From NCBI RefSeq assembly GCF_009914755.1, contig NC_060939.1: a DNA stretch of 64,000 nucleotides, one strand, 5' to 3'. This DNA comes from the human T2T-CHM13v2.0 reference genome, Homo sapiens. The first letter of the stretch is position 1; each line of letters opens with the position of its first letter. The notes below the pieces were generated by a model. It saw nothing but the letters and a program-made list of their open reading frames with translations. It did no database searches and had not been told where the DNA came from. Position numbers and translations under genes: made by a program. Positions 28,604 to 63,400 of the stretch are shown here, in pieces.

Positions 28604-29318
28604 TAGGAGCCAGAGAGTCACCATGAAGTTCAATCGCTTGGTGACCTGGGACCACAGCAAAAACTGCAAACGTCACTTCAATGCCCCCTCGCAGGTATGC
28701 AGGAAGGTCATGTCGTCCCTGCTCTCCAAAGAGCTGAGCAGAAATACAATGTCTGCTCCATGCCCATCTGCAAGGACCACGAGGTCCAGGTGGTTTGAGG
28801 ACACTACAGAGGTTAACAAATTGGCAAGTAGTCAAGTTGTACAGAAAGAAAGTCAAGGTGTATCCATCATTTCCCAATGCATGCACACCCACACACACTT
28901 CCTTGTGTCCCTTATTCAGAAAGAAATATGTCCTCTACATTGAGCAGGTGCAGTGTGAGAGGGCCAACGGCACCACCATCCCTGTGGGCCTTCACTTGAG
29001 CAAGGTGGCTCTCACCAGGCCAAAACTGGACAAGGATCAGAAAAAATTCTTGAATGCAAAGCCAAGTCTTGACAAGTTGGAAAAGAGACAGGCAAATATA
29101 AGGAAGAACTTATTGAGAAAATGCAGGAATGAATATAACTTGTTGTGCAACCATGGTTTAACTGGAGATTTTTGGCCTAGCATGTGTTTCTTTGGAGCTT
29201 ATCAAAATGTCTCTGGAATATTTCATTTCCTATTTTGTTACCACTGGTTCAGTGAATCTACTTTTGGAATTTTGATTAATAATTTTATGAGTGAAAATGG
29301 GAAATGCTCTAAAAAAAA
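28604..29318 (+). pseudogene. Processed pseudogene of 60S ribosomal protein uL24, RPL26L1-type
   Basis: ATG 28623 gives [29 protein letters not shown]. Frameshifts follow; then [32 protein letters not shown]; C-terminus [12 protein letters not shown] (TGA 29130-29132; EELIEK is the RPL26L1 rather than RPL26 form, from memory). Intronless, 3'UTR, short poly(A) 29311-29319, 17-bp TSD agaaatcaggaaatata at 28587-28603 and 29319-29335. Confidence 0.9.
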
Positions 29319-46410: not shown

Positions 46411-46769
<359 letters not shown>

Positions 46770-47146: not shown

Positions 47147-48667
47147 TTAGCCACCACCTTAAGAAAATAAAAAAAGTAAGACCAAATTAAACCTAAATCA
47201 AGAAGAGAGAAATAAATCATAAAGACAAGAGTAGAAATGTATGATACTGAAATAGTAAAACAATGAAAATTAAAAACCCAAATCTGGTTCTTTGAAAAAT
47301 AATCCATAAAATTGATAAACCTCTAGCACTATACTTACTGGAGAAAGATTGGATGCTTTCTAAGACTGAGGGGGAAAAAAAAGAATATGCATTCTCACTA
47401 ATACTATTCACTATCTTATTTGAAGTCTTAGTCCAATAAGGCAAGAAAAAGAAAAGGCATAGCATATGGAGAGGAAGAAATAAAAATACCCAACGTGATT
47501 TTCTATGAAGAAGACCTAAAGGAATATAATAAAAGCAATACGTAAATGTAGGAAGTTACAGGATACAAAGCCAATATAAAAAAATTCAATTGTATATGTT
47601 TATGCTGAAAATACACAATTGGAAACAAAAATGAAAAGCCATTTACAATAGCTTCAACAAAAATGAAATACAAATCAACCTAATAAAACATGTACTGGGT
47701 ATGTGAGCTAAAACTGGAGAATGCTGATGAAAGAAACGAAGGAAGACCTAGATAAATGAAGAGACCTGCCATGTGCTTGTATTGGAGACTAAACATAGTA
47801 AATATGTCAGCACTCTCCAAACTGCTCTATTTATTGAAAACAATACCAATCAAAATGTTGCAGTATCTTTTTAATCGAGAGTAACTCATTCTAAAATTTA
47901 TATAGAAATACAAAAATCTGGAATAGCTAAACAAATTTGGAGAGGTCACACTACCCAATTAAAAGACTATCATCCTTCAGCAATCAAAATGGTATTGGAA
48001 TAGTTACATAGATCAATGGAAAGGAATAATGAGTCAAGGTTATCTACTACACAGATGTAGCAGAGATTTTTGATGAAAGTACAAGAGCAATTCAGTGGAG
48101 ATATTACAGTCTTTTAAAACAATGACATTGGAAAAAATTATTCACATGTAAAAAATGAACCTTAAACTAAATATAACACTATACAAAAGTTAAATAAATT
48201 ATAAATCTAAATATAAAATGTAAAACTATATTACTATTAGAAAACATGGGAGAAAACCTTTGTTAATTGGGATTAGACAAGGAGTTCTTACACATGACAC
48301 CAAAAGTATATAACATAAAATTTTAAAAAATGGCTTGTTAGACTATATCAAAATTAAAAACTTTTACTGTGCAAAAGGCACTACTAAGAATGAGAAGACA
48401 AGCTACAAAGTAGGGGAAATATTTGTGAACTCTGTGTTCAACAAAGGACTAATACCCAAAATATTTAAAGAACTCTCATAACTCAACAATAAGAAAACCC
48501 AATTTCTAAAAATTGTGTAAAAGTCTTGAATAGACAGCTTATCAAAGTAGATAAAAAGACAGGAAATGCATAGAAAGGTTTTCAACATCACACGTTATTA
48601 GGAAAATGAAAATTAAAAACCCAGATGTTGATAATACTGGGTTTTTCAGTATTATCAACTGAAAGGA

Positions 48668-48772
48668 CTTGGCCCCAGAGGGCCGGCCTTACTCCAGGCC
48701 ACGGTCTTCCTACACCTCGGTGCCCAGCAGTCTGTCCACTGCAGGGATCTTTCCCAAGAGCAGCAGTAGCTC
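48668..48772 (+). repeat. 105-bp direct copy of MCTP2 coding sequence 53557-53661, embedded in L1
   Basis: 103/105 identical, ungapped, by manual alignment. Confidence 0.97.
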
Positions 48773-50049
48773 ATACACATACCTATTAGAATGGCTATGC
48801 ACATACCTATTAGAATGGCTAAAATTAAAAGTCCTGATGGTACTAAGTCCTCAGTAGGATATAGACAACTGGAATTCTCATAATTGTGGGCGGGAATGCA
48901 AATTGGTCTGTTAAAGTCTGGCAAAGAGTTATCAGGTTCTTTATAAAGTTAAACATTCATTTATCATATGACCCAGCAATCTCACTCTTTGGCATTTATC
49001 CCAGAGAAATGAGAACATATATTCGTACACAAAAAACCTGTACACAAATGATTATAGCAACTTTATTTGTAAGAATTCCAAATTGGAAACAACCCAAATG
49101 TCCTTCAAGGGGTAAATAGATTAATTGTGGTACATCCACACAATAGACTACTACTGTCAGCAACAAAAAGTTCAACTACTGACATGTGCAGCAACTGGAT
49201 GAATCTCAAAGGTAACGTGCTGAGTGAAAGAAGCCTGTCTCTAAAAGTTATATACTGTGTGATTCCGTTTAGAAAACATTCCCCGAAAGACAAAATGATA
49301 GTGATAGAGAATAGAACGGTGGTTTGCAGAGGAAGGAAGTGGGGGCCTGGGAGCGCGTGATCCTTTGGGGATAGACAGACCCCTCTGTGTCCCGATTGTG
49401 ATGGTGTAAACACAAATCTGTAAATGTGTTAACATTATAGAACTGTGCACCAAAAGTGAGAAAAAAGCCAATTTTGTTTTAGAATGATTTCAAAAATAAA
49501 GTTGAAAAAGTCATTTCTTAACAAAACAAAGATGGTGAAACTGGTGGTTCCAGTGTCCAGGGGTTAGGTATATCCCTGCTTTCTACTTGAATTTCTCTTG
49601 AATATATTATAATGTACCAGTAATACGTGCATTCCTACCAGCTTCACCCCCTCAAATAAAGGAGACTGACTCCTGGCACAGGACAGTGTAGTGCATGGAG
49701 AAGATAAACATTTTTCCACTTAGACACATTCTTTAGAGATGCAACTTTGTTTACAGCAACTCCTTTTCTCATTTTCTTGGAGATGTTTTTGGTTTGCTTA
49801 GATACACAGATTACAAACCTCTTCATTTCATAAGAGGCTGATTCCCATTCCCAGTCTCCCTTCCAAATAGGAGATTTCCCTCAAAGGGGAATGTAAGCCT
49901 CTCCCCTAGGATTCCTAAGCTTTGATCTGCACAGTAACACCAGGGAGATTGGTTGGAAGGCAGATTCTTGGGACTCACGTTCATCTCCTGTGGTGGAGCC
50001 CAGGACTGTCTACTTTTATTTATATTTATTTATTTTGAAACTTTTTTCT

Positions 50050-50357
50050 CTTTATTTTTCTTTTCTTTTCCTTTTTTTTTTTTTTTTTGAGACAGTCTTA
50101 CTCCATCACCCAGGCTGGAGTGCAGTGGCGCAATCTCAGCTCACTGCAACCTCCGCCTCCTCGGTTCAAGCAATTCTTGTGCCTCAGCCTCTCAGTTCCT
50201 GGCATTACAGGTATGAACCACCATACCTGGCTAATTATTTATATTTTTAGTAGAGATGGGATTCTGCCATGTTGGCCAGGCTGGTCTCGAACTCCTGACC
50301 TCAAGCCATCCACCCGCCTTGGCCTCCCAAAGTGCTGGGATTACAGGTATGAGCCTG
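50050..50357 (-). mobile_element. Alu (J/S), diverged
   Basis: Antisense dimer with T-rich tail. Confidence 0.88.
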
Positions 50358-50829: not shown

Positions 50830-51286
<457 letters not shown>

Positions 51287-53312: not shown

Positions 53313-53377
53313 GAGTCATTGCAGTTTTCAGTAGAGGTGTACTTCTGAGAAGTGGCTTCTTGGGTCTTCATGCAGCC

Positions 53378-53842
53378 ATGGATCTGGATAAACCATCTGT
53401 TTGGGGCTCATTAAAACAGCGGACCAGGCCATTGTTGATCAACTTGAGCAAGAAGAAGGTGAAAAAGAACCCAAGTAAGCCCCCAGATCTACGGGCAAGG
53501 CATCACTTGGACCGCCGTCTCAGCCTCTCTGTGCCTGATCTCCTGGAGGCTGAGGCCTTGGCCCCAGAGGGCCGGCCTTACTCCGGGCCACAGTCTTCCT
53601 ACACCTCGGTGCCCAGCAGTCTGTCCACTGCAGGGATCTTTCCCAAGAGCAGCAGTAGCTCCTTGAAACAGTCTGAAGAAGAATTGGATTGGAGCCAGGA
53701 AGAAGCCAGTCACCTCCATGTGGTGGAAACAGACTCAGAGGAGGCCTATGCCTCTCCTGCTGAGCGGAGACGGGTGTCCAGCAACGGCATCTTTGATCTT
53801 CAGAAAACTTCCCTTGGAGGGGATGCACCAGAAGAGCCAGAG
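53378..53842 (+). CDS. MCTP2: MCTP2 (multiple C2 and transmembrane domain-containing protein 2), first coding exon, codons 1-155; exon 53313-53842 including 65 nt of 5'UTR
   Basis: Translation [74 protein letters not shown]...GGDAPEEPE recognised as the MCTP2 N-terminus. Strong Kozak gccATGg. Long polypyrimidine tract ending ttttatAG (53311-53312). Phase-0 donor GAG|GTGAGA at 53842/53843; 465 nt = 155 codons. Confidence 0.96.
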
Positions 53843-53861
53843 GTGAGAATAGGGCTGGGCT

Positions 53862-54165
53862 CTCTTTTTTTTTGTCTCTCTCTCTCTCTCTCTTTCCCTC
53901 TCTTTCTCCCTCTCTCCCCGTCTCCCTCTCTCTTCCCCCCTCCCCCTCCCTCTCTCTCTTCCCCCCTCCCCCTCCCTCTCTCTCTCCCCCTCCCCCCTCT
54001 TTCTCTCTCTCTCCCTCCCTCTCCCTCCCTCCCTCTCCCTCTTTCCCTCTCCCTCTCTCCCTCTCTCCCTCTCCCTCTCCCTCTCCCTCTCCCTCTCTCC
54101 CTCTCCCTCTCTCCCTCTCTCCCTCCCTCTCTCCCTCCCCCTCCCCCTTCCCCTTCCCCTCCCTT
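53862..54165. repeat. Polypyrimidine (CT)n/(CCCTCT)n tract
   Basis: ~300 nt almost exclusively C/T beginning ~20 nt after the exon donor. Confidence 0.95.
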
Positions 54166-55329
54166 TGGAAAATTTGGTTAGGAGTTATTTTCGTGGTTAG
54201 CTCAGATGGGGAGAATGTTGTTTACAAGAATTTAAATTAATGCAGTATTGATTGTACCCAGTGTTCCCATTAGTTTTAGGGTTGACCTCTGTGTGTTTTA
54301 AAGCTATTACAAATAACTCTTCCAGAATACTTTAGGACATTAAAAGCCATATTGGATGAATTCTCTTTTATCTGTCTCCTGGCAAAGAAATTAAGTACCT
54401 AACTTTTCCTGGAATTTTTTTTTAAGTGTATGTTTGTGTCTCTCACTACACCATTGCCCAGTCATACCTGTAGAAAAACCATGCATATTATTACTCCTAA
54501 GAAGCATATGAATGTATGTCCCCCTTTGACTGCCTTAGGATTTGAACTTCCTTCTATTTTATACCTGTGTGTGCACTCGCCTGTGAACAAGCATTCTTTT
54601 AAAAAGTTAACAAAACTTTAGTATTTCAATACAATTAATTAACCAAATATAATGATGACACAAATATTTTATTTCAAGGGTGAATATAATTTAAATTCAG
54701 TCCCCAGGTTACCAGATCATGATTTAAGTGACTGATGTAATTAGTTGTCTTTAAAAAGTCTTTCGTTACTGACACTGAAGTAGGTTTCCATGTTGAAGTA
54801 AGGGGTTAATTTTTCTGTGTTCCAGGTTAGTGTTACAATTGCCTAGAAAACTGGTTGTTTAACTTGGATTTTTAGTTTCACTTTTAGAAACAAAACTCAT
54901 TGCTTATTCCATGTATCAGGGTTTCACCAGGGAAGGGATCATGGATGTTTGGAGGATATCATGGCCATATTCGTTAGCAAGCATTACTATATTAAGACAC
55001 CATTACCCATAAATGACTTTAACTATTTTTTTATTTGGCATTACGTTTTATAAAACCCATTTTGTAAACCTTTTTTGACTTTTTAGTTATTTATGAATTT
55101 GAAATACATGTTTCTTTTAAACAAAATGCAAATGAAGTAGATTATTAAATCAGGTCAGTATAAGGAAGGTAACCTGTTGAATTATATAATAAAGTTAATC
55201 TTCGTCTTTTTTTTTCCTGACCAGAAAATAAAAGTGGGCTTCTTGGCTTTGATATACTAACATTTTCATACTCAGAAGGAATTTTTTTGAAGCGACTGCT
55301 GTTAAACCATTTAGAACTTTTATTGTCAT

Positions 55330-55651
<322 letters not shown>

Positions 55652-57287: not shown

Positions 57288-57390
57288 CCAGTTGAGATAA
57301 GTGGGGAGGTTACTCTGAGCAGGGTGGTCAGGAAAGGCTTGAAGAGAACTCCTTTTGAGAATTAGTAAGACTCAGATAGGCAGAGAGTAA
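57288..57390 (+). repeat. 103-bp direct copy of 61242-61344
   Basis: Ungapped, 4 mismatches, all transitions. Confidence 0.95.
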
Positions 57391-57931: not shown

Positions 57932-58870
57932 CATATTAGTCCATTTTCATGCTACTGATAGACATAACGAGACGGGGCAAATTACAAAAGAAAGACGTTT
58001 AATATGGACGACTTACAGTTCCACATGGCTGGGGAGGCCTCACAATCATGGCAGAAGGCAAGGAGGAGCAAGTCATGTCTTACATGGATGGCAGCCAGCA
58101 AAGGGAGAGAGCATGGACAAGGAAACTCCCTGTATTAGGGTTCTCTAGAGGGGCAGAACTAATGGAATATATATATATATAGTTTATATATATATAGTTT
58201 ATATATATAGTTTATATATATATAGTTTATATAGTTTATATATATATATAGTTTATATATATAGTTTATATATATATATATATAGTTCTGTCTAGAGGGA
58301 CAGAACTAATGGAATATATATATATATGTTTATTAAATATTATCTCACATGATCACACGGTCCCACAATAGGCCATCTACAGGCTGAGGAGCAAGCAGTC
58401 CAGGTTCCAAAACTGAAGAATTTGGATTCGGATGTTTGAGGGCAGGAAGCATCCAGCATGGGAGAAAGGTGTAGGCTGGGAGGCTAGGCCAGTCTGTTTT
58501 CACATTTTTCTGCCTGCTTATATTCTAGCCACACTGGCAGCTGATTAGATGATGCCCACCCAGATTAAGGGTGGGTCTGCCTTTCCCAGCCCACTGACTC
58601 AAATGTTAATCTCTTTTAGCAACACCCTCACAGACACACCCAGGATCAATATTTTATATCCTTCAGTCTAATCAAGTTGACATTCAGTATTAACTATCAC
58701 ACTCCCAGTCATAAAACCATCAGATCTCATGAGACCCATTCACTGTCACGAGAACAGCATGGGAAAGAGTTGCCCCGTGGTTCAGTCATCTCCCATGGGT
58801 CCCTCCTACAACATGTGGGAATTATGGGAGCTACAAGATGAGATTTGGGTGGGGACACGGAGCAAACTTA
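57932..58870 (-). mobile_element. THE1-family MaLR LTR split by MLT2A (pieces 57932-58130 and 58702-58870)
   Basis: attagtccattttcatgct...gttccacatggctggggaggcctcacaatcatggcagaagg...aaaccatcagatctcatgaga...gatgagatttgggtggggacac. Confidence 0.88.
58131..58701 (-). mobile_element. MLT2A-type (HERV-L) solo LTR
   Basis: tgtattagggttctctagagg...aagttgacattcagtattaactatcaca; TG..CA ends; perfect 5-bp TSD CTCCC (58126-58130, 58702-58706). Confidence 0.9.
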
Positions 58871-60485: not shown

Positions 60486-63400
60486 TGTGATCTTAACAGT
60501 TTTAGCCTCGGAGGACGATCTCATTGCTTGTGGCCAAGACTTGTGGCTAAAGAGGAGGTAAGAGCACCATAGTCTACTGCCACATACCAATACCTCCACA
60601 CACATACACACACATGCGGATATATATATATATGTATGGGAGTGTATATATATACCTTTTTATAGGTGTGTGTGTATACACACATAGCTGTTTAGAAGTC
60701 AGTCTCTCTTGTTAGAGTATAAGCTCTTGAAGAGTAGAAATGTCATTTTTCTTCTTCTCCCGGCCTTTCTGCAAACCTTGCTTATATGATATGCATGTAT
60801 ATTGATTCATATTATCACTGCAGTTGACTTTCCAGCCACTGCCAAAGGCTTGGAAAGCCATAAGAAATTTAGTTGTGTTGGGGAAGGGTGATACATGGAG
60901 GCGCTACGTGGGTAGGGCCCTAAAGAAAGGAGTTTCTAAGCATCAGATGAAATGTGAAGAAGCTAAAGTTAAGGGAACTCGGAGGGAGAGGAGCTTATTT
61001 TTTTATTTTTTTCTTCTTATCTAGTTTTTTTCTCCTCATTTTCTCCTCTAGTCAGCACTCTCCTAGTACTTACTTTACAAGACGCTTTTAACATGCATTG
61101 TAAAATCAGCTAAGTATTTAGAAAATGCATACGGTCTATTCTGGTTCTTGCCGTAGGTATTGATGGTGAAATTGGGATTAGACACAGACACTGAAAAAAA
61201 TGACCAGCAATACCAACCAGTCTCTACTCAGTGCTAGATAACCAGTTGAGATGAATGGGGAGGTTATTCTGAGCAGGGTGGTCAGGAAAGGCTTGAAGAG
61301 AACTCCTTTTGAGAATTAGTAAGACTTAGATAGGCAGAGAGTAATACAGATTAGTTAAGTTTGTCTGTGGGGCTAGAAAAATATGAAGGTCTTAGCCCAG
61401 TACCTGCCAGCCACAAGCACCTAACAAGTGCTTACTGCCATGATTTTGGTTGTATTCATTAGTGTTTATAATTATTTTTAACATTGCTTATTTTTCAGAA
61501 TGACATGGAGGTTTGGAGAATTTTAGTGACTTGCTTAATGTCATCCAGCTAGTAAGTGTCAGAGACAGGATCTAACTCCAGGATTGTCTGAATCCTGGGA
61601 CTGTGCGCAGAACTGTGGGTATAACATGAGTTTGGAAGTACAATTCTGCAAATGGGAGAGCTCAGATCTGGAGATAAAAAAAGTTGATCACAAAAGGAAG
61701 ACATTTATTTTTCTGTGTCCACTGTGTCCTTTTAAACACAAGGATAATTATCAAGATTGAATGGGCTCATTGTCATGGTCAATAACTAATAATTATGAAA
61801 GAAAGGATCATTCCCCCTTTCCCATAATCCATGAAATTCCACAATGGGGTATGTCCTTCCCTGACATTTCATTTGGCAGTTGGAGTTGTGAATAACTAGC
61901 TTTGGCATGCACTTACGTGGGTGAGTTGAGTGATTTAGAGAAGTTCCCCATTGAGATATTTCCAGAAATGGCTTGGCAACTGCATAGCTTCAGGTTAGTG
62001 ATCACAGAGAAGTAGAGTGAGAAACCACAGAGGAGAGGAAACGACCTCCAGGTTGCAAAATTAAACAAGTGCGTCAGTTTCTCTACACTTCAATGACGTC
62101 ATTTTTACTATTTTTGTGTGATCTCGAAAGTCGTACCTCAATAAGTGATGGTGTGTCAGAGAGGCAGGTGTGTCAGCTACATCCCAGGGTCCATCATGGG
62201 CTCAGTCTCGCTGTTCTTCTTCCTTCCCTTCGCACCTGTTGAACGCCTGCTTTGTGCTGATGCAGATCCAGACACTAGGGACAGAGTAGTCAACAAAATA
62301 GAAAAAAGTCACCTTCCTCATGGAGTTTCCACTAGGAAAGGTGGCAAGCTATAGATATAATCAGAACATAAAGTGTCATGGAGAGAAAGAAAGCAGAGTA
62401 GGTGCTGGGGGGGAGGTGTTATCATTTTGTACAGAGTGGTCAGGAAGGACCTCTTCCGAGAAGATAACCTTCACACAAAGATATGGAGGAGGTGAGGAAG
62501 TGGGTTGTGTGCATAGCTAGAGAAAAGCCTTCCAGAAAAAGAGAACAGCAAGCATAAAGGCCCCAGGGTAGCAGGAGTGTCCCTGATGTTTCAGGAAGAG
62601 CAAGGAAGCAGTGAGGCTGGAGAGGAGGCAGTGAGGCGGCAATGGGAGGAGATGGCAGAGAAGTGAACAGAAGCCACATCATGTAGGGCGTTCCTATCTT
62701 GTCAGGCAACTCTAGCTGCTTAGTGCACTGAATGAGCGGGATGCACAGGAACCCCATGGGCTCAATGCTGCATCACTCATAGGGCAGAAGGAATCGTTGG
62801 CACACGGGCAGTGCTTGCTGTGTCTGCTGTAGACACTGGGTATAGCAGTAAGTCCAAGCTTTGCCTTGGACAAAAGATATGGAGAAATGGCGCACAGGCT
62901 GATGGGCTGTGGGCAGAGGGAAAATGGCACTGTCCCGAGGCTTCGTCAGCCAGTCTCTGACTTTGTCCTGGTCACTTTCGGTGGGGAATGTTGGAGGGAG
63001 CTAAGAAAGGGACTCAGATTGCTCACCACCTTCATCAAGTTCTTTTGATCCACTCTTCCCAAACACATAGGCTGTTTTATGACTATTACTAATATAATTC
63101 ATAATAATAATAATAAATAGAATAGCAACACCAATCTAATGCTACTTACTGAGGGTTTATGTGTAAGGAACTCTGCTAATTTCTACATAAATATTATCAG
63201 ACCACATCTATTTGGTTTCCTCTGTATGCGAAGAGTCCTCGCACAGTGTCTGTCTGAGAAAAGGCTTTCAGTAAATACCCTCTGAGTGATTTAATTATCC
63301 TAACAACCTATAAGAATCTGTTTTGATCCATTGAGAGATGTTCCCATGTCTTGAATTTTAGGTATATTTTTCAAGGACAGAAAGCTAGAAGGTAGCAGAG

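What the first reader, a model, noticed from the sequence alone, without database searches (positions are those of the whole stretch)
48668..48772. A 105-bp piece of the MCTP2 coding exon is copied 4.9 kb upstream into an L1 3' region
Seen: cttggccccagagggccgg...gcagcagtagctc matches 53557-53661 at 103/105 (109 bp with 3 mismatches from 48664), in the same orientation, with no splice site or poly(A). L1 sequence on either side is collinear (aaaatgaaaattaaaaac... then ...cacatacctattagaatggctaaaattaaaa), so the exon is the donor. Inference: a recent DNA-level, or nascent-RNA-templated, capture of the gene's own exon at a break in its own intron.
Basis: seen in the sequence. Interest (0 to 1): 0.75.

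Follow-up and report, generated by a model that had tools for sequence, protein, structure and literature searches.

The report
Exon fragment patched into intronic L1
A roughly 160-base scar inside an old L1 repeat in an MCTP2 intron is stitched from copies of its own two flanks plus about 109 bases of the gene's coding exon 4.9 kb away, the mark of one DNA break mended by a polymerase that kept switching templates; it is a clear example of a known kind of mutation.

Summary
Window 48668-48772 matches 53557-53661 at 103/105, and 48664-48772 matches 53553-53661 at 106/109, in direct orientation. The T2T genome holds only these two copies. The exon is the donor: its peptide is invariant in 27 of 27 mammals at both internal differing codons, so those changes lie on the copy.

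- two reverse-complement copies of the left flank (7-10 nt and 13 nt);
- 4 nt of filler;
- the exon patch;
- a 24-25 nt direct copy of the right flank.

Outside simple repeats, these are the window's only perfect hairpin and only short tandem duplication of that size, and both abut the exon patch. There is no poly(A), no target-site duplication of 5 nt or more, and no L1 cleavage motif.

Best reading: one break repaired by serial primer-template switching, of the Pol theta end-joining or MMBIR type. A DNA versus RNA template is unresolved, and so is the age (0 to about 50 Myr). This is a known kind of event and of modest interest. A second unique 103-nt duplicate lies nearby (57288/61242).

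The parts
48330..48639 (+). Left flank: old LINE-1 ORF2 remnant, sense strand. It ends ...CCCAGATGTTGATAATAC(TG).
   Evidence: Genome relatives match at 67-75% identity over query 8-289. Aligned with L1 relatives up to about 48637-48639. The relative L006 encodes ORF2p residues 1077-1230, E 2.4e-50.
48615..48624 (+). Template of inverted patch 1 (AAAAACCCAG) in the left flank.
   Evidence: Exact reverse complement of 48637-48646.
48627..48639 (+). Template of inverted patch 2 (GTTGATAATACTG). This is the left-flank end.
   Evidence: Exact reverse complement of 48647-48659.
48640..48646 (+). Inverted patch 1: GGTTTTT. With the flank's terminal CTG (48637-48639) it forms a 10-nt reverse-complement copy of 48615-48624. 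CTG/CAG is a possible 3-nt priming microhomology.
   Evidence: Absent from all 16 L1 relatives.
48647..48659 (+). Inverted patch 2: CAGTATTATCAAC, a 13-nt reverse-complement copy of 48627-48639. It forms a perfect 13-bp hairpin with a 7-nt loop.
   Evidence: DNA fold -11.2 kcal/mol, z -4.8, 0 of 200 shuffles as stable. The 33-mer is unique in the genome at up to 3 mismatches.
48660..48663 (+). Filler TGAA. It is either untemplated, or TGA continues the exon (53551-53553) with a 2-nt slip.
   Evidence: Inference.
48664..48772 (+). Exon-derived patch, 109 nt (105 nt under the strict reading from 48668).
   Evidence: 106/109 to 53553-53661. Only two genomic copies.
48773..48797 (+). Direct patch: a 24-25 nt copy of the right flank (ATACACATACCTATTAGAATGGCTA).
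   Evidence: 24/25 to 48797-48821. TRF period 24, 1.9 copies. It is the only short tandem duplication of 22 nt or more outside simple repeats in the window.
48797..49330 (+). Right flank: the LINE-1 ORF2 remnant resumes (..CACATACCTATTAGAATGGCTAAAATTAAAA..).
   Evidence: Relatives match at 68-76% identity and align across the junction. The translation of window 48865-49116 matches ORF2p 1152-1215, E 9e-13.
53553..53661 (+). Donor: internal part of the first coding exon of MCTP2, codons 59-95. It is intact.
   Evidence: Hub annotation gives the exon as 53313-53842 and the CDS start as 53378.

Best explanation
A single DNA break (or collapsed fork) in an old sense-oriented LINE-1 ORF2 remnant in the MCTP2 intron was repaired by iterative primer-template switching. 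Read on the top strand, the 3' end of the left side went through five steps. (1) It folded back on itself, possibly pairing its terminal CTG with CAG 13 nt upstream, and copied 7 nt. (2) It copied 13 nt of itself again in reverse complement. (3) It added 0-4 nt and then copied about 105-113 nt of the MCTP2 coding exon 4.9 kb downstream, in direct orientation. (4) It copied 24-25 nt of the opposite (right) flank. (5) It re-annealed at the break-proximal end and was sealed. The net result is a 160-nt insertion with essentially no loss of L1 sequence. The enzymology is most likely alternative end joining of the Pol theta (TMEJ / SD-MMEJ) kind or microhomology-mediated BIR. The exon template was more likely DNA than RNA. 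One possibility is the long resected 3' tail of the right end, which would carry the exon's antisense strand and would give the observed direct orientation. What is shown: the patch anatomy, the uniqueness of the pieces, donor polarity, and the absence of retrotransposition marks. What is inferred: that this was one event, the order of steps, the polymerase, and the nature of the template. The scar has no indicated function.
For: Five patch relations were verified base by base. Outside simple-repeat tracts the window holds exactly 1 perfect hairpin (of 25 rows; the other 24 lie in simple TA/CA tracts) with a stem of 13 or more and a loop of 20 or less. It also holds exactly 1 exact tandem repeat of 22 nt or more (of 7 rows; the other 6 lie in simple tracts). 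Both touch the exon patch within 5 nt. The patches are 97-100% identical to their templates, while the host L1 is only 67-76% identical to its relatives. If the patches were as old as the host, P(>=23/24) is 2e-3, P(20/20) is 8e-4 and P(>=106/109) is 2e-13. None of the 16 aligned L1 relatives carries any of the block. The 33-nt hairpin has no other source in the genome. The donor is intact and conserved. No poly(A), no TSD of 5 nt or more (only TG or ATAC is ambiguous), and no TTTT/A site. From the literature, Pol theta scars in C. elegans show flank-templated inserts, reiterated priming with 'complex combinatorial inserts', reverse-complement snap-back inserts, about 3% of inserts from distant sites, and roughly 1 error per 30 nt (PMC5068794, passages read). 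Foldback inverted insertions of 5-34 bp occur at yeast DSBs (PMC11724301, abstract). MMBIR-type templated insertions exist as human germline variants (PMC8421209, abstract).
Against: The exon patch (105-113 nt, from 4.9 kb away) is longer and more distant than typical Pol theta inserts, which are mostly under 25 bp, with about 85% primed within 10 bp of the break (PMC5068794). Microhomology is weak or absent at three of the five junctions. The second fold-back has no obvious paired primer. The exact ancestral L1 sequence at the break is ambiguous by 2-4 nt, with two parses possible. That it was one event is inferred from adjacency and equal freshness, not shown. No other species or human haplotype could be examined. 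The irregularities (a 2-nt slip and a C>A change) cluster at the left end of the exon patch. In the Pol theta data mismatches cluster where synthesis stops, which would fit right-to-left synthesis better than the left-to-right order proposed here.
Confidence: 0.6

Rival explanations
1. RNA-templated patch. The exon piece was reverse-transcribed from nascent MCTP2 pre-mRNA tethered at the locus, by Pol theta or L1 ORF2p acting without its endonuclease. This would be a class-2 'templated sequence insertion'. The flank micro-patches would come from the same end-joining reaction.
For: The donor is transcribed sequence of the same gene, in the same orientation and 4.9 kb away. The size of 105-113 nt falls in the 73-414 bp range of experimental TSIs. 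TSIs are enriched for transcribed sequence and reduced by RT inhibitors, and class 2 has no TSD or poly(A) but does have microhomology and filler (PMC5110952, parts 1-2 of 4 read). Pol theta can reverse-transcribe RNA (PMC8195485, title and start of abstract in the search listing only). The error cluster at the left end of the patch fits synthesis running right to left, as a cDNA primed from the right end would.
Against: The patch lies inside one exon, so no splice junction can show an RNA origin. A sense-RNA template forces synthesis from the right end's bottom strand. The two inverted patches and the direct flank copy then need additional separate reactions. Germline expression of MCTP2 was not examined.
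Confidence: 0.15
2. Capture by end joining of a free DNA fragment from the exon region, for example a displaced lagging-strand flap or excised single strand of about 100 nt, with small fill-in patches at the joints.
For: Patch size is about 100 nt. A second clean 103-nt duplicate 4 kb apart, with no micro-patches, lies in the same window. In yeast, distant templated insertions rise in rad27 and RPA mutants (PMC11724301, abstract).
Against: A random free fragment would rarely come from within 5 kb. A source window of 1e4 out of 3.1e9 bases gives about 3e-6 (my arithmetic from the genome size). Proximity therefore has to be built into the model. Plain ligation does not explain three flank-templated patches.
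Confidence: 0.1
3. Several unrelated small mutations (an inverted duplication, a tandem duplication and an exon-piece insertion) accumulated at the same spot at different times.
For: The order and unity of the steps are not shown. One difference exists between the two 25-nt tandem copies. Short-range template-switch mutations are common in ape genomes (PMC5453318 and PMC7954356, search listing only).
Against: Three features that are each unique in 64 kb of non-simple sequence lie end to end within 185 nt. All are near-perfect inside a 67-76% identity host.
Confidence: 0.08
4. L1-mediated retro-insertion (class-1 TSIP or processed retrocopy), or a chimera made by L1 reverse-transcriptase template switching when the L1 itself inserted.
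For: The host is an L1, and the insert is transcribed sequence.
Against: There is no poly(A), no TSD of 5 nt or more and no TTTT/A site. The exon patch is 97% identical to its source, while the L1 is 67-76% identical to its relatives, so the patch is far younger than the L1.
Confidence: 0.02
5. Assembly artefact in T2T-CHM13.
For: Only one assembly was available here.
Against: The copy differs from the exon at 2-3 positions and is embedded in structured micro-patches. A mis-join would be identical to its source and would lack these patches.
Confidence: 0.02

Closest known systems
Class 2 templated sequence insertions / TSIPs (Onozawa and Aplan; PMC5110952)
   Same: A patch of about 100 nt copied from intact, transcribed donor sequence. 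No TSD, poly(A) or L1 cleavage site. Filler and microhomology at the joints. Heritable (germline).
   Different: The donor is 4.9 kb away in cis in the same gene, not a 'distant' locus. The patch is flanked by three flank-templated micro-patches. An RNA origin cannot be tested here. Polymorphism status is unknown.
Pol theta-mediated end-joining scars (templated 'delins', snap-back and trans templating; PMC5068794, PMC4912351)
   Same: Direct and reverse-complement copies of sequence within about 25 nt of the break. Several patches in series. Microhomology of 0-3 nt. Mismatch or slippage near a switch point.
   Different: One patch is 105-113 nt long and comes from 4.9 kb away. There is little or no deletion at the break. 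POLQ dependence is untestable.
MMBIR / FoSTeS templated insertions (PMC8421209)
   Same: Serial template switches to nearby templates in either orientation with little homology. Known as human germline variants.
   Different: No accompanying copy-number change or larger rearrangement was seen in the window. A replication origin for the event is untestable.
Short-range template-switch mutations (four-point model; PMC5453318)
   Same: A new perfect hairpin made by copying the adjacent sequence in reverse complement.
   Different: The two inverted patches sit in swapped order relative to their templates, so one four-point event cannot produce them. They are also joined to a 4.9-kb-distant direct patch.

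Membership tests
L1-mediated insertion (class 1 TSIP / retrocopy) | Target-site duplication of at least 5 bp flanking the insert | tested here: not met
   Only TG (2 nt) or ATAC (4 nt) can be read on both sides, depending on the parse.
L1-mediated insertion (class 1 TSIP / retrocopy) | Poly(A) tail and upstream polyadenylation signal at the 3' end of the insert | tested here: not met
   The patch ends ...GCAGTAGCTC and runs straight into ATACACATACC.
L1-mediated insertion (class 1 TSIP / retrocopy) | Insertion at a TTTT/A-type L1 endonuclease site | tested here: not met
   The site reads GATAATAC(TG)/CACATACC.
Class 2 templated sequence insertion | Donor intact; insert is an extra copy; no TSD or poly(A); NHEJ-like joints (microhomology, filler) | tested here: met
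   The exon is intact and conserved. 4-nt filler and 0-3 nt microhomology.
Class 2 templated sequence insertion | Template is reverse-transcribed RNA | not testable with these tools
   The patch lies within a single exon, so there is no splice junction to examine.
Class 2 templated sequence insertion | Donor in a distant genomic region | tested here: not met
   The donor is 4,889 bp downstream on the same strand.
Pol theta end joining (TMEJ / SD-MMEJ) templated insert | Inserted bases copied from the immediate flanks, direct (trans) and/or reverse-complement (snap-back), often in several rounds | tested here: met
   7-10 nt and 13 nt inverted copies of the left flank, and a 24-25 nt direct copy of the right flank.
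Pol theta end joining (TMEJ / SD-MMEJ) templated insert | Short inserts (mostly under 25 bp) templated within about 10 bp of the break | tested here: inconclusive
   True for three patches. The exon patch is 105-113 nt and comes from 4.9 kb away (PMC5068794).
Pol theta end joining (TMEJ / SD-MMEJ) templated insert | Dependence on POLQ | not testable with these tools
   This needs a genetic or inhibitor experiment.
MMBIR / FoSTeS | Two or more template switches to nearby sequence with microhomology at the joints | tested here: met
   At least four switches. Microhomology is 3 nt at one joint and 0-1 nt at the others.
MMBIR / FoSTeS | Origin at a collapsed replication fork (one-ended break) | not testable with these tools
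   No sequence feature separates this from a two-ended break.

The most novel reading that the evidence does not exclude
The exon patch is a cDNA of the gene's own nascent pre-mRNA, laid down at a break in its own intron. That would make it a natural germline fossil of transcript-RNA-templated double-strand-break repair in cis. The second 103-nt duplicate 4-8 kb downstream would then be a sister scar of the same repair-prone episode.
Probability: 0.12. Interest if true: 0.65.

Novelty: new member of a known kind. Interest (0 to 1): 0.3.

Why it matters
The scar is an unusually legible record of a multi-step repair reaction in the primate germline. It holds five patches with their templates all identifiable, one of them a coding-exon fragment from 4.9 kb away. 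It shows that short flank-templated synthesis and a long-range templated patch can occur in one joint, which bears on how far the end-joining or MMBIR template search reaches in vivo. It has no indicated effect on MCTP2. The insert is intronic, unannotated and upstream of the coding start. It does not open a new question.

Tried and rejected
- Other donors for the hairpin: a genome search with the 33-mer at up to 3 mismatches found only the locus itself.
- Processed pseudogene as intermediate donor: the whole exon has no other copy in the genome.
- Naming the host by Pfam: 0 meaningful hits for 5 window fragments and 7 fragments of relatives. PDB sequence search did identify LINE-1 ORF2p. The 37-aa fragment across the tandem duplication gave nothing.
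- In-window L1 relatives spanning the junction: none were usable, so genome relatives were used instead.
- One four-point template-switch event for both inverted patches: rejected, because the patches are in swapped order relative to the flank.
- CpG-decay dating that assumed the exon had lost a CpG: rejected once Q72 proved invariant in 27/27 mammals, so the copy gained G at 48703.
- Literature on this locus: a search for MCTP2 plus 'templated' gave 6 papers, none about this insertion judging by title and abstract.
- Polarity of the second duplicate (57288/61242): no relatives of its flanks and no micro-patches were found, so it is unresolved.

Full report
**Observation**

The window was read at both places. 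An ungapped comparison at offset 4889 gives 103/105 for 48668-48772 vs 53557-53661, and 106/109 for 48664-48772 vs 53553-53661, in direct orientation. The three differences are:
- 48667 A vs C;
- 48696 A vs G (the exon has a CpG here);
- 48703 G vs A.

The three-of-four match at 48664-48667 has a chance probability of 0.05, so the 109-nt reading is likely but not certain. A search of the whole T2T genome with the 109-mer returns 2 matches from 2 candidates, the copy and the exon. The complete 530-nt exon likewise finds only itself and this piece. No processed MCTP2 copy could therefore have served as an intermediate.

**Who is the donor**

The window's exon peptide was searched against the protein database using longer lengths. 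It found MCTP2 orthologues: 162 proteins with E of 1e-3 or better, of which 120 are listed. I aligned the human exon peptide with 26 of these, chosen to span primates and other placental orders.
- Residues G70 and Q72, the codons hit by the two internal differences, are identical in 27 of 27 sequences.
- A60, the codon hit by the third difference, is A in the 10 catarrhine sequences and varies elsewhere.

The exon has therefore kept the ancestral state, and the differences lie on the intronic copy. In the exon's register the copy reads S-R-P-R where the exon reads S-G-P-Q. The exon is old and constrained, and the copy is derived.

**The host**

The flanks belong to a highly repeated family: 6426 first-look candidates, of which 40 were scored. 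L1-type relatives are 67-76% identical to the window.
- One relative (L006) encodes 154 residues that match human LINE-1 ORF2p 1077-1230 (E 2.4e-50).
- The window's own + strand translation of 48865-49116 matches ORF2p 1152-1215 (E 9e-13).

The host is thus a sense-oriented, heavily decayed L1 ORF2 C-terminal segment. By the numbering, the insertion sits at about ORF2p residue 1113-1115. Pfam gave no hit for these fragments.

Of 28 fetched relatives, 16 reached the junction and were aligned with window 48560-48856.
- None of the 16 has any residue across the window-specific block.
- On the left, rows such as L012 and L031 read ...ATG-AGATACTACTA, opposite the window's ...ATGTTGATAATACTG.
- On the right, they resume at CATACCTATTAGAATGGCTAAAAT.
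- Three or four of the 16 rows (L015, L021, L030, partly L012) have unrelated sequence to the left of the junction.

**Anatomy of the block**

Between the two L1 flanks lie about 160 nt (48640-48799 in one parse). All pieces were verified by script:
- (a) 48640-48646, GGTTTTT. Together with the flank's last CTG this makes 48637-48646, the exact reverse complement of 48615-48624.
- (b) 48647-48659, CAGTATTATCAAC, the exact reverse complement of 48627-48639.
- (c) 48660-48663, TGAA, unassigned. Alternatively, TGA continues the exon (53551-53553) with a 2-nt slip.
- (d) 48664-48772, the exon patch.
- (e) 48773-48797, a direct copy (24 of 25) of 48797-48821, the start of the right flank. TRF reports period 24 and 1.9 copies.

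Patches (a) and (b) sit in swapped order relative to their templates, so they need two separate switches. Together with the flank they form a 13-bp perfect hairpin with a 7-nt loop. Its DNA fold is -11.2 kcal/mol, z -4.8, and 0 of 200 shuffles are as stable. The 33-mer occurs nowhere else in the genome at up to 3 mismatches, and the reversed control gives 0.

The ancestral L1 sequence at the break is ambiguous by 2-4 nt:
- Either ...ATACTG|CACATACC..., with TG on both sides of the block.
- Or ...GATAATAC|ACATACC..., with ATAC on both sides, the tandem copy then being a further slip.

In neither parse is there a target-site duplication of 5 nt or more, a poly(A) tail or a TTTT/A site.

**More than chance, and one event?**

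A scan of the whole window was run for two kinds of feature.
- Perfect hairpins with a stem of 13 or more and a loop of 20 or less: 25 rows. Of these, 24 lie in the simple TA/CA tracts at 360-800 and 58237-58284. The other is 48627-48659.
- Exact direct repeats of 22 nt or more at a distance of 15-60: 7 rows. Of these, 6 lie in simple tracts. The other is 48776-48797.

Both unique features abut the exon patch. All patches are 96-100% identical to their templates inside a host that is 67-76% identical to its relatives. If the patches were as old as the host, the probabilities of such matches are 2e-3, 8e-4 and 2e-13. Adjacency, equal freshness and rarity make a single composite event the economical reading. 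This is inference, not proof.

**Mechanism**

The pattern has reverse-complement copies of the same end, a direct copy of the opposite end, several rounds, little microhomology and a few unassigned bases. That is the pattern described for polymerase-theta end joining.
- In C. elegans, flank-templated inserts, 'complex combinatorial inserts' from reiterated priming, snap-back inserts, about 3% of inserts from distant sites, and an error rate of about 1 in 30 nt within templated inserts are reported (PMC5068794, passages read).
- Three modes of Pol theta extension are reported: untemplated, in cis and in trans (PMC4912351, start of abstract from the search listing only).
- Foldback inverted insertions of 5-34 bp at yeast breaks, and distant templated insertions, are also known (PMC11724301, abstract).
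- MMBIR-type templated insertions exist as human germline variants (PMC8421209, abstract).

The simplest path extends the left end's top-strand 3' tail: two fold-backs in cis, then the exon, then the right flank, then closure. In that path both trans templates, the exon and the right flank, are the bottom strand to the right of the break. That is what a long resected right-end 3' tail, a sister chromatid or a fork template would offer, and it accounts for the direct orientation. This favours a DNA template.

Three points count against a plain Pol theta reading:
- The exon patch is 105-113 nt and comes from 4.9 kb away, whereas most Pol theta inserts are under 25 bp and primed within 10 bp of the break.
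- Microhomology is 3 nt at one joint and 0-1 nt at the others.
- The slip and the C>A change sit at the left end of the exon patch. In the Pol theta data errors cluster where synthesis stops, so this would fit right-to-left synthesis.

Right-to-left synthesis is also what a cDNA primed from the right end on sense pre-mRNA would look like. Class-2 templated sequence insertions are 73-414 bp, enriched for transcribed donors and sensitive to RT inhibitors, and they lack TSD and poly(A) (PMC5110952, parts 1-2 of 4 read). They are the matching RNA-based precedent. Pol theta is reported to reverse-transcribe RNA (PMC8195485, search listing only). Because the patch lies within one exon, no splice junction can decide the question. 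My estimates are:
- DNA-templated serial switching: about 0.6;
- RNA-templated patch: about 0.15;
- fragment capture: about 0.1;
- independent events: about 0.08;
- retrotransposition: about 0.02;
- assembly artefact: about 0.02.

**Age**

If the 2-3 differences, plus the one in the tandem copy, are later substitutions on neutral lineages, then at 1e-9 per site per year (a recalled rate) the pooled estimate is about 20 Myr, with a 95% range of 5-52 Myr. It is older at slower rates. If they are synthesis errors at about 1 in 30, then 3.6 errors would be expected in 109 nt, and the event could be arbitrarily recent. 'Recent' therefore holds relative to the L1 host only. No other primate genome or human haplotype was available here.

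**Comparison and novelty**

The event works like a Pol theta / MMBIR templated insertion and resembles a class-2 TSI. It fails every tested criterion of L1-mediated insertion. No paper on this particular insertion turned up: a search for MCTP2 plus 'templated' gave 6 papers, none relevant judging by title and abstract. It is a new, well-preserved member of a known kind. No function is indicated.

**A second duplicate nearby**

A self-comparison of the window lists only 3 non-self pairs of 40 nt or more at 93% identity or better. One is the exon pair. Another is 57288-57390 vs 61242-61344. This pair is 99/103 identical, all four differences are transitions, it is in direct orientation and the copies are 3,954 bp apart. 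It too has only two copies in the genome. No micro-patches lie at its edges, and I could not tell which copy is the insert. Two unique direct patches of about 100 nt, each 4-5 kb from its source, within 13 kb of one gene is suggestive of a shared episode or a locally favoured process.

Noticed in passing
window 57288-57390 and 61242-61344: A second unique direct duplicate: 103 nt, 99/103 identical (four transitions), 3,954 bp apart, in the intron after the coding exon. There are only two copies in the T2T genome. No flank micro-patches were found, and which copy is the insert is unresolved. From recall only, the flanks of the 61.2-kb copy look like the two halves of a minus-strand MIR.
   Followed up: partly
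window 28861-28905 vs 27462-27418: A 45-nt inverted match at 93% identity, beside or inside the annotated RPL26P5 pseudogene.
   Followed up: no
window 48605-48623 vs 47262-47280: A 19-nt exact match (AATGAAAATTAAAAACCCA; E 6e-5) between the left flank of the insertion and a site 1.3 kb upstream. From recall, the upstream site is probably an earlier part of the same L1 ORF2. Both are A-rich and each is close to what L1 relatives read there, so convergence by composition seems likelier than another templated patch.
   Followed up: partly
window 48637-48857: The new hairpin creates a pyrimidine run plus CAG (GGGTTTTTCAG/T) that looks like a splice acceptor. The copy also sits in a 64-codon open frame (48663-48857) that includes 35 MCTP2-like residues. 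No annotated exon lies here, and splice strength was not scored.
   Followed up: no
window 53834-54192: A long CT-rich low-complexity tract begins right at the donor splice site of the donor exon, about 190 nt past the end of the copied stretch (family D1; masked 53857-54168 in the hub's table). Such tracts can stall forks. Any link to the event is speculation.
   Followed up: no
window 46451-46746, 50068-50355, 50874-51041, 55330-55629: Four repeats of 120-300 nt with A/T tails, 74-91% identical to each other in direct and inverted orientation. They look like Alu elements (name from recall). Two of them lie between the copy and the exon.
   Followed up: no
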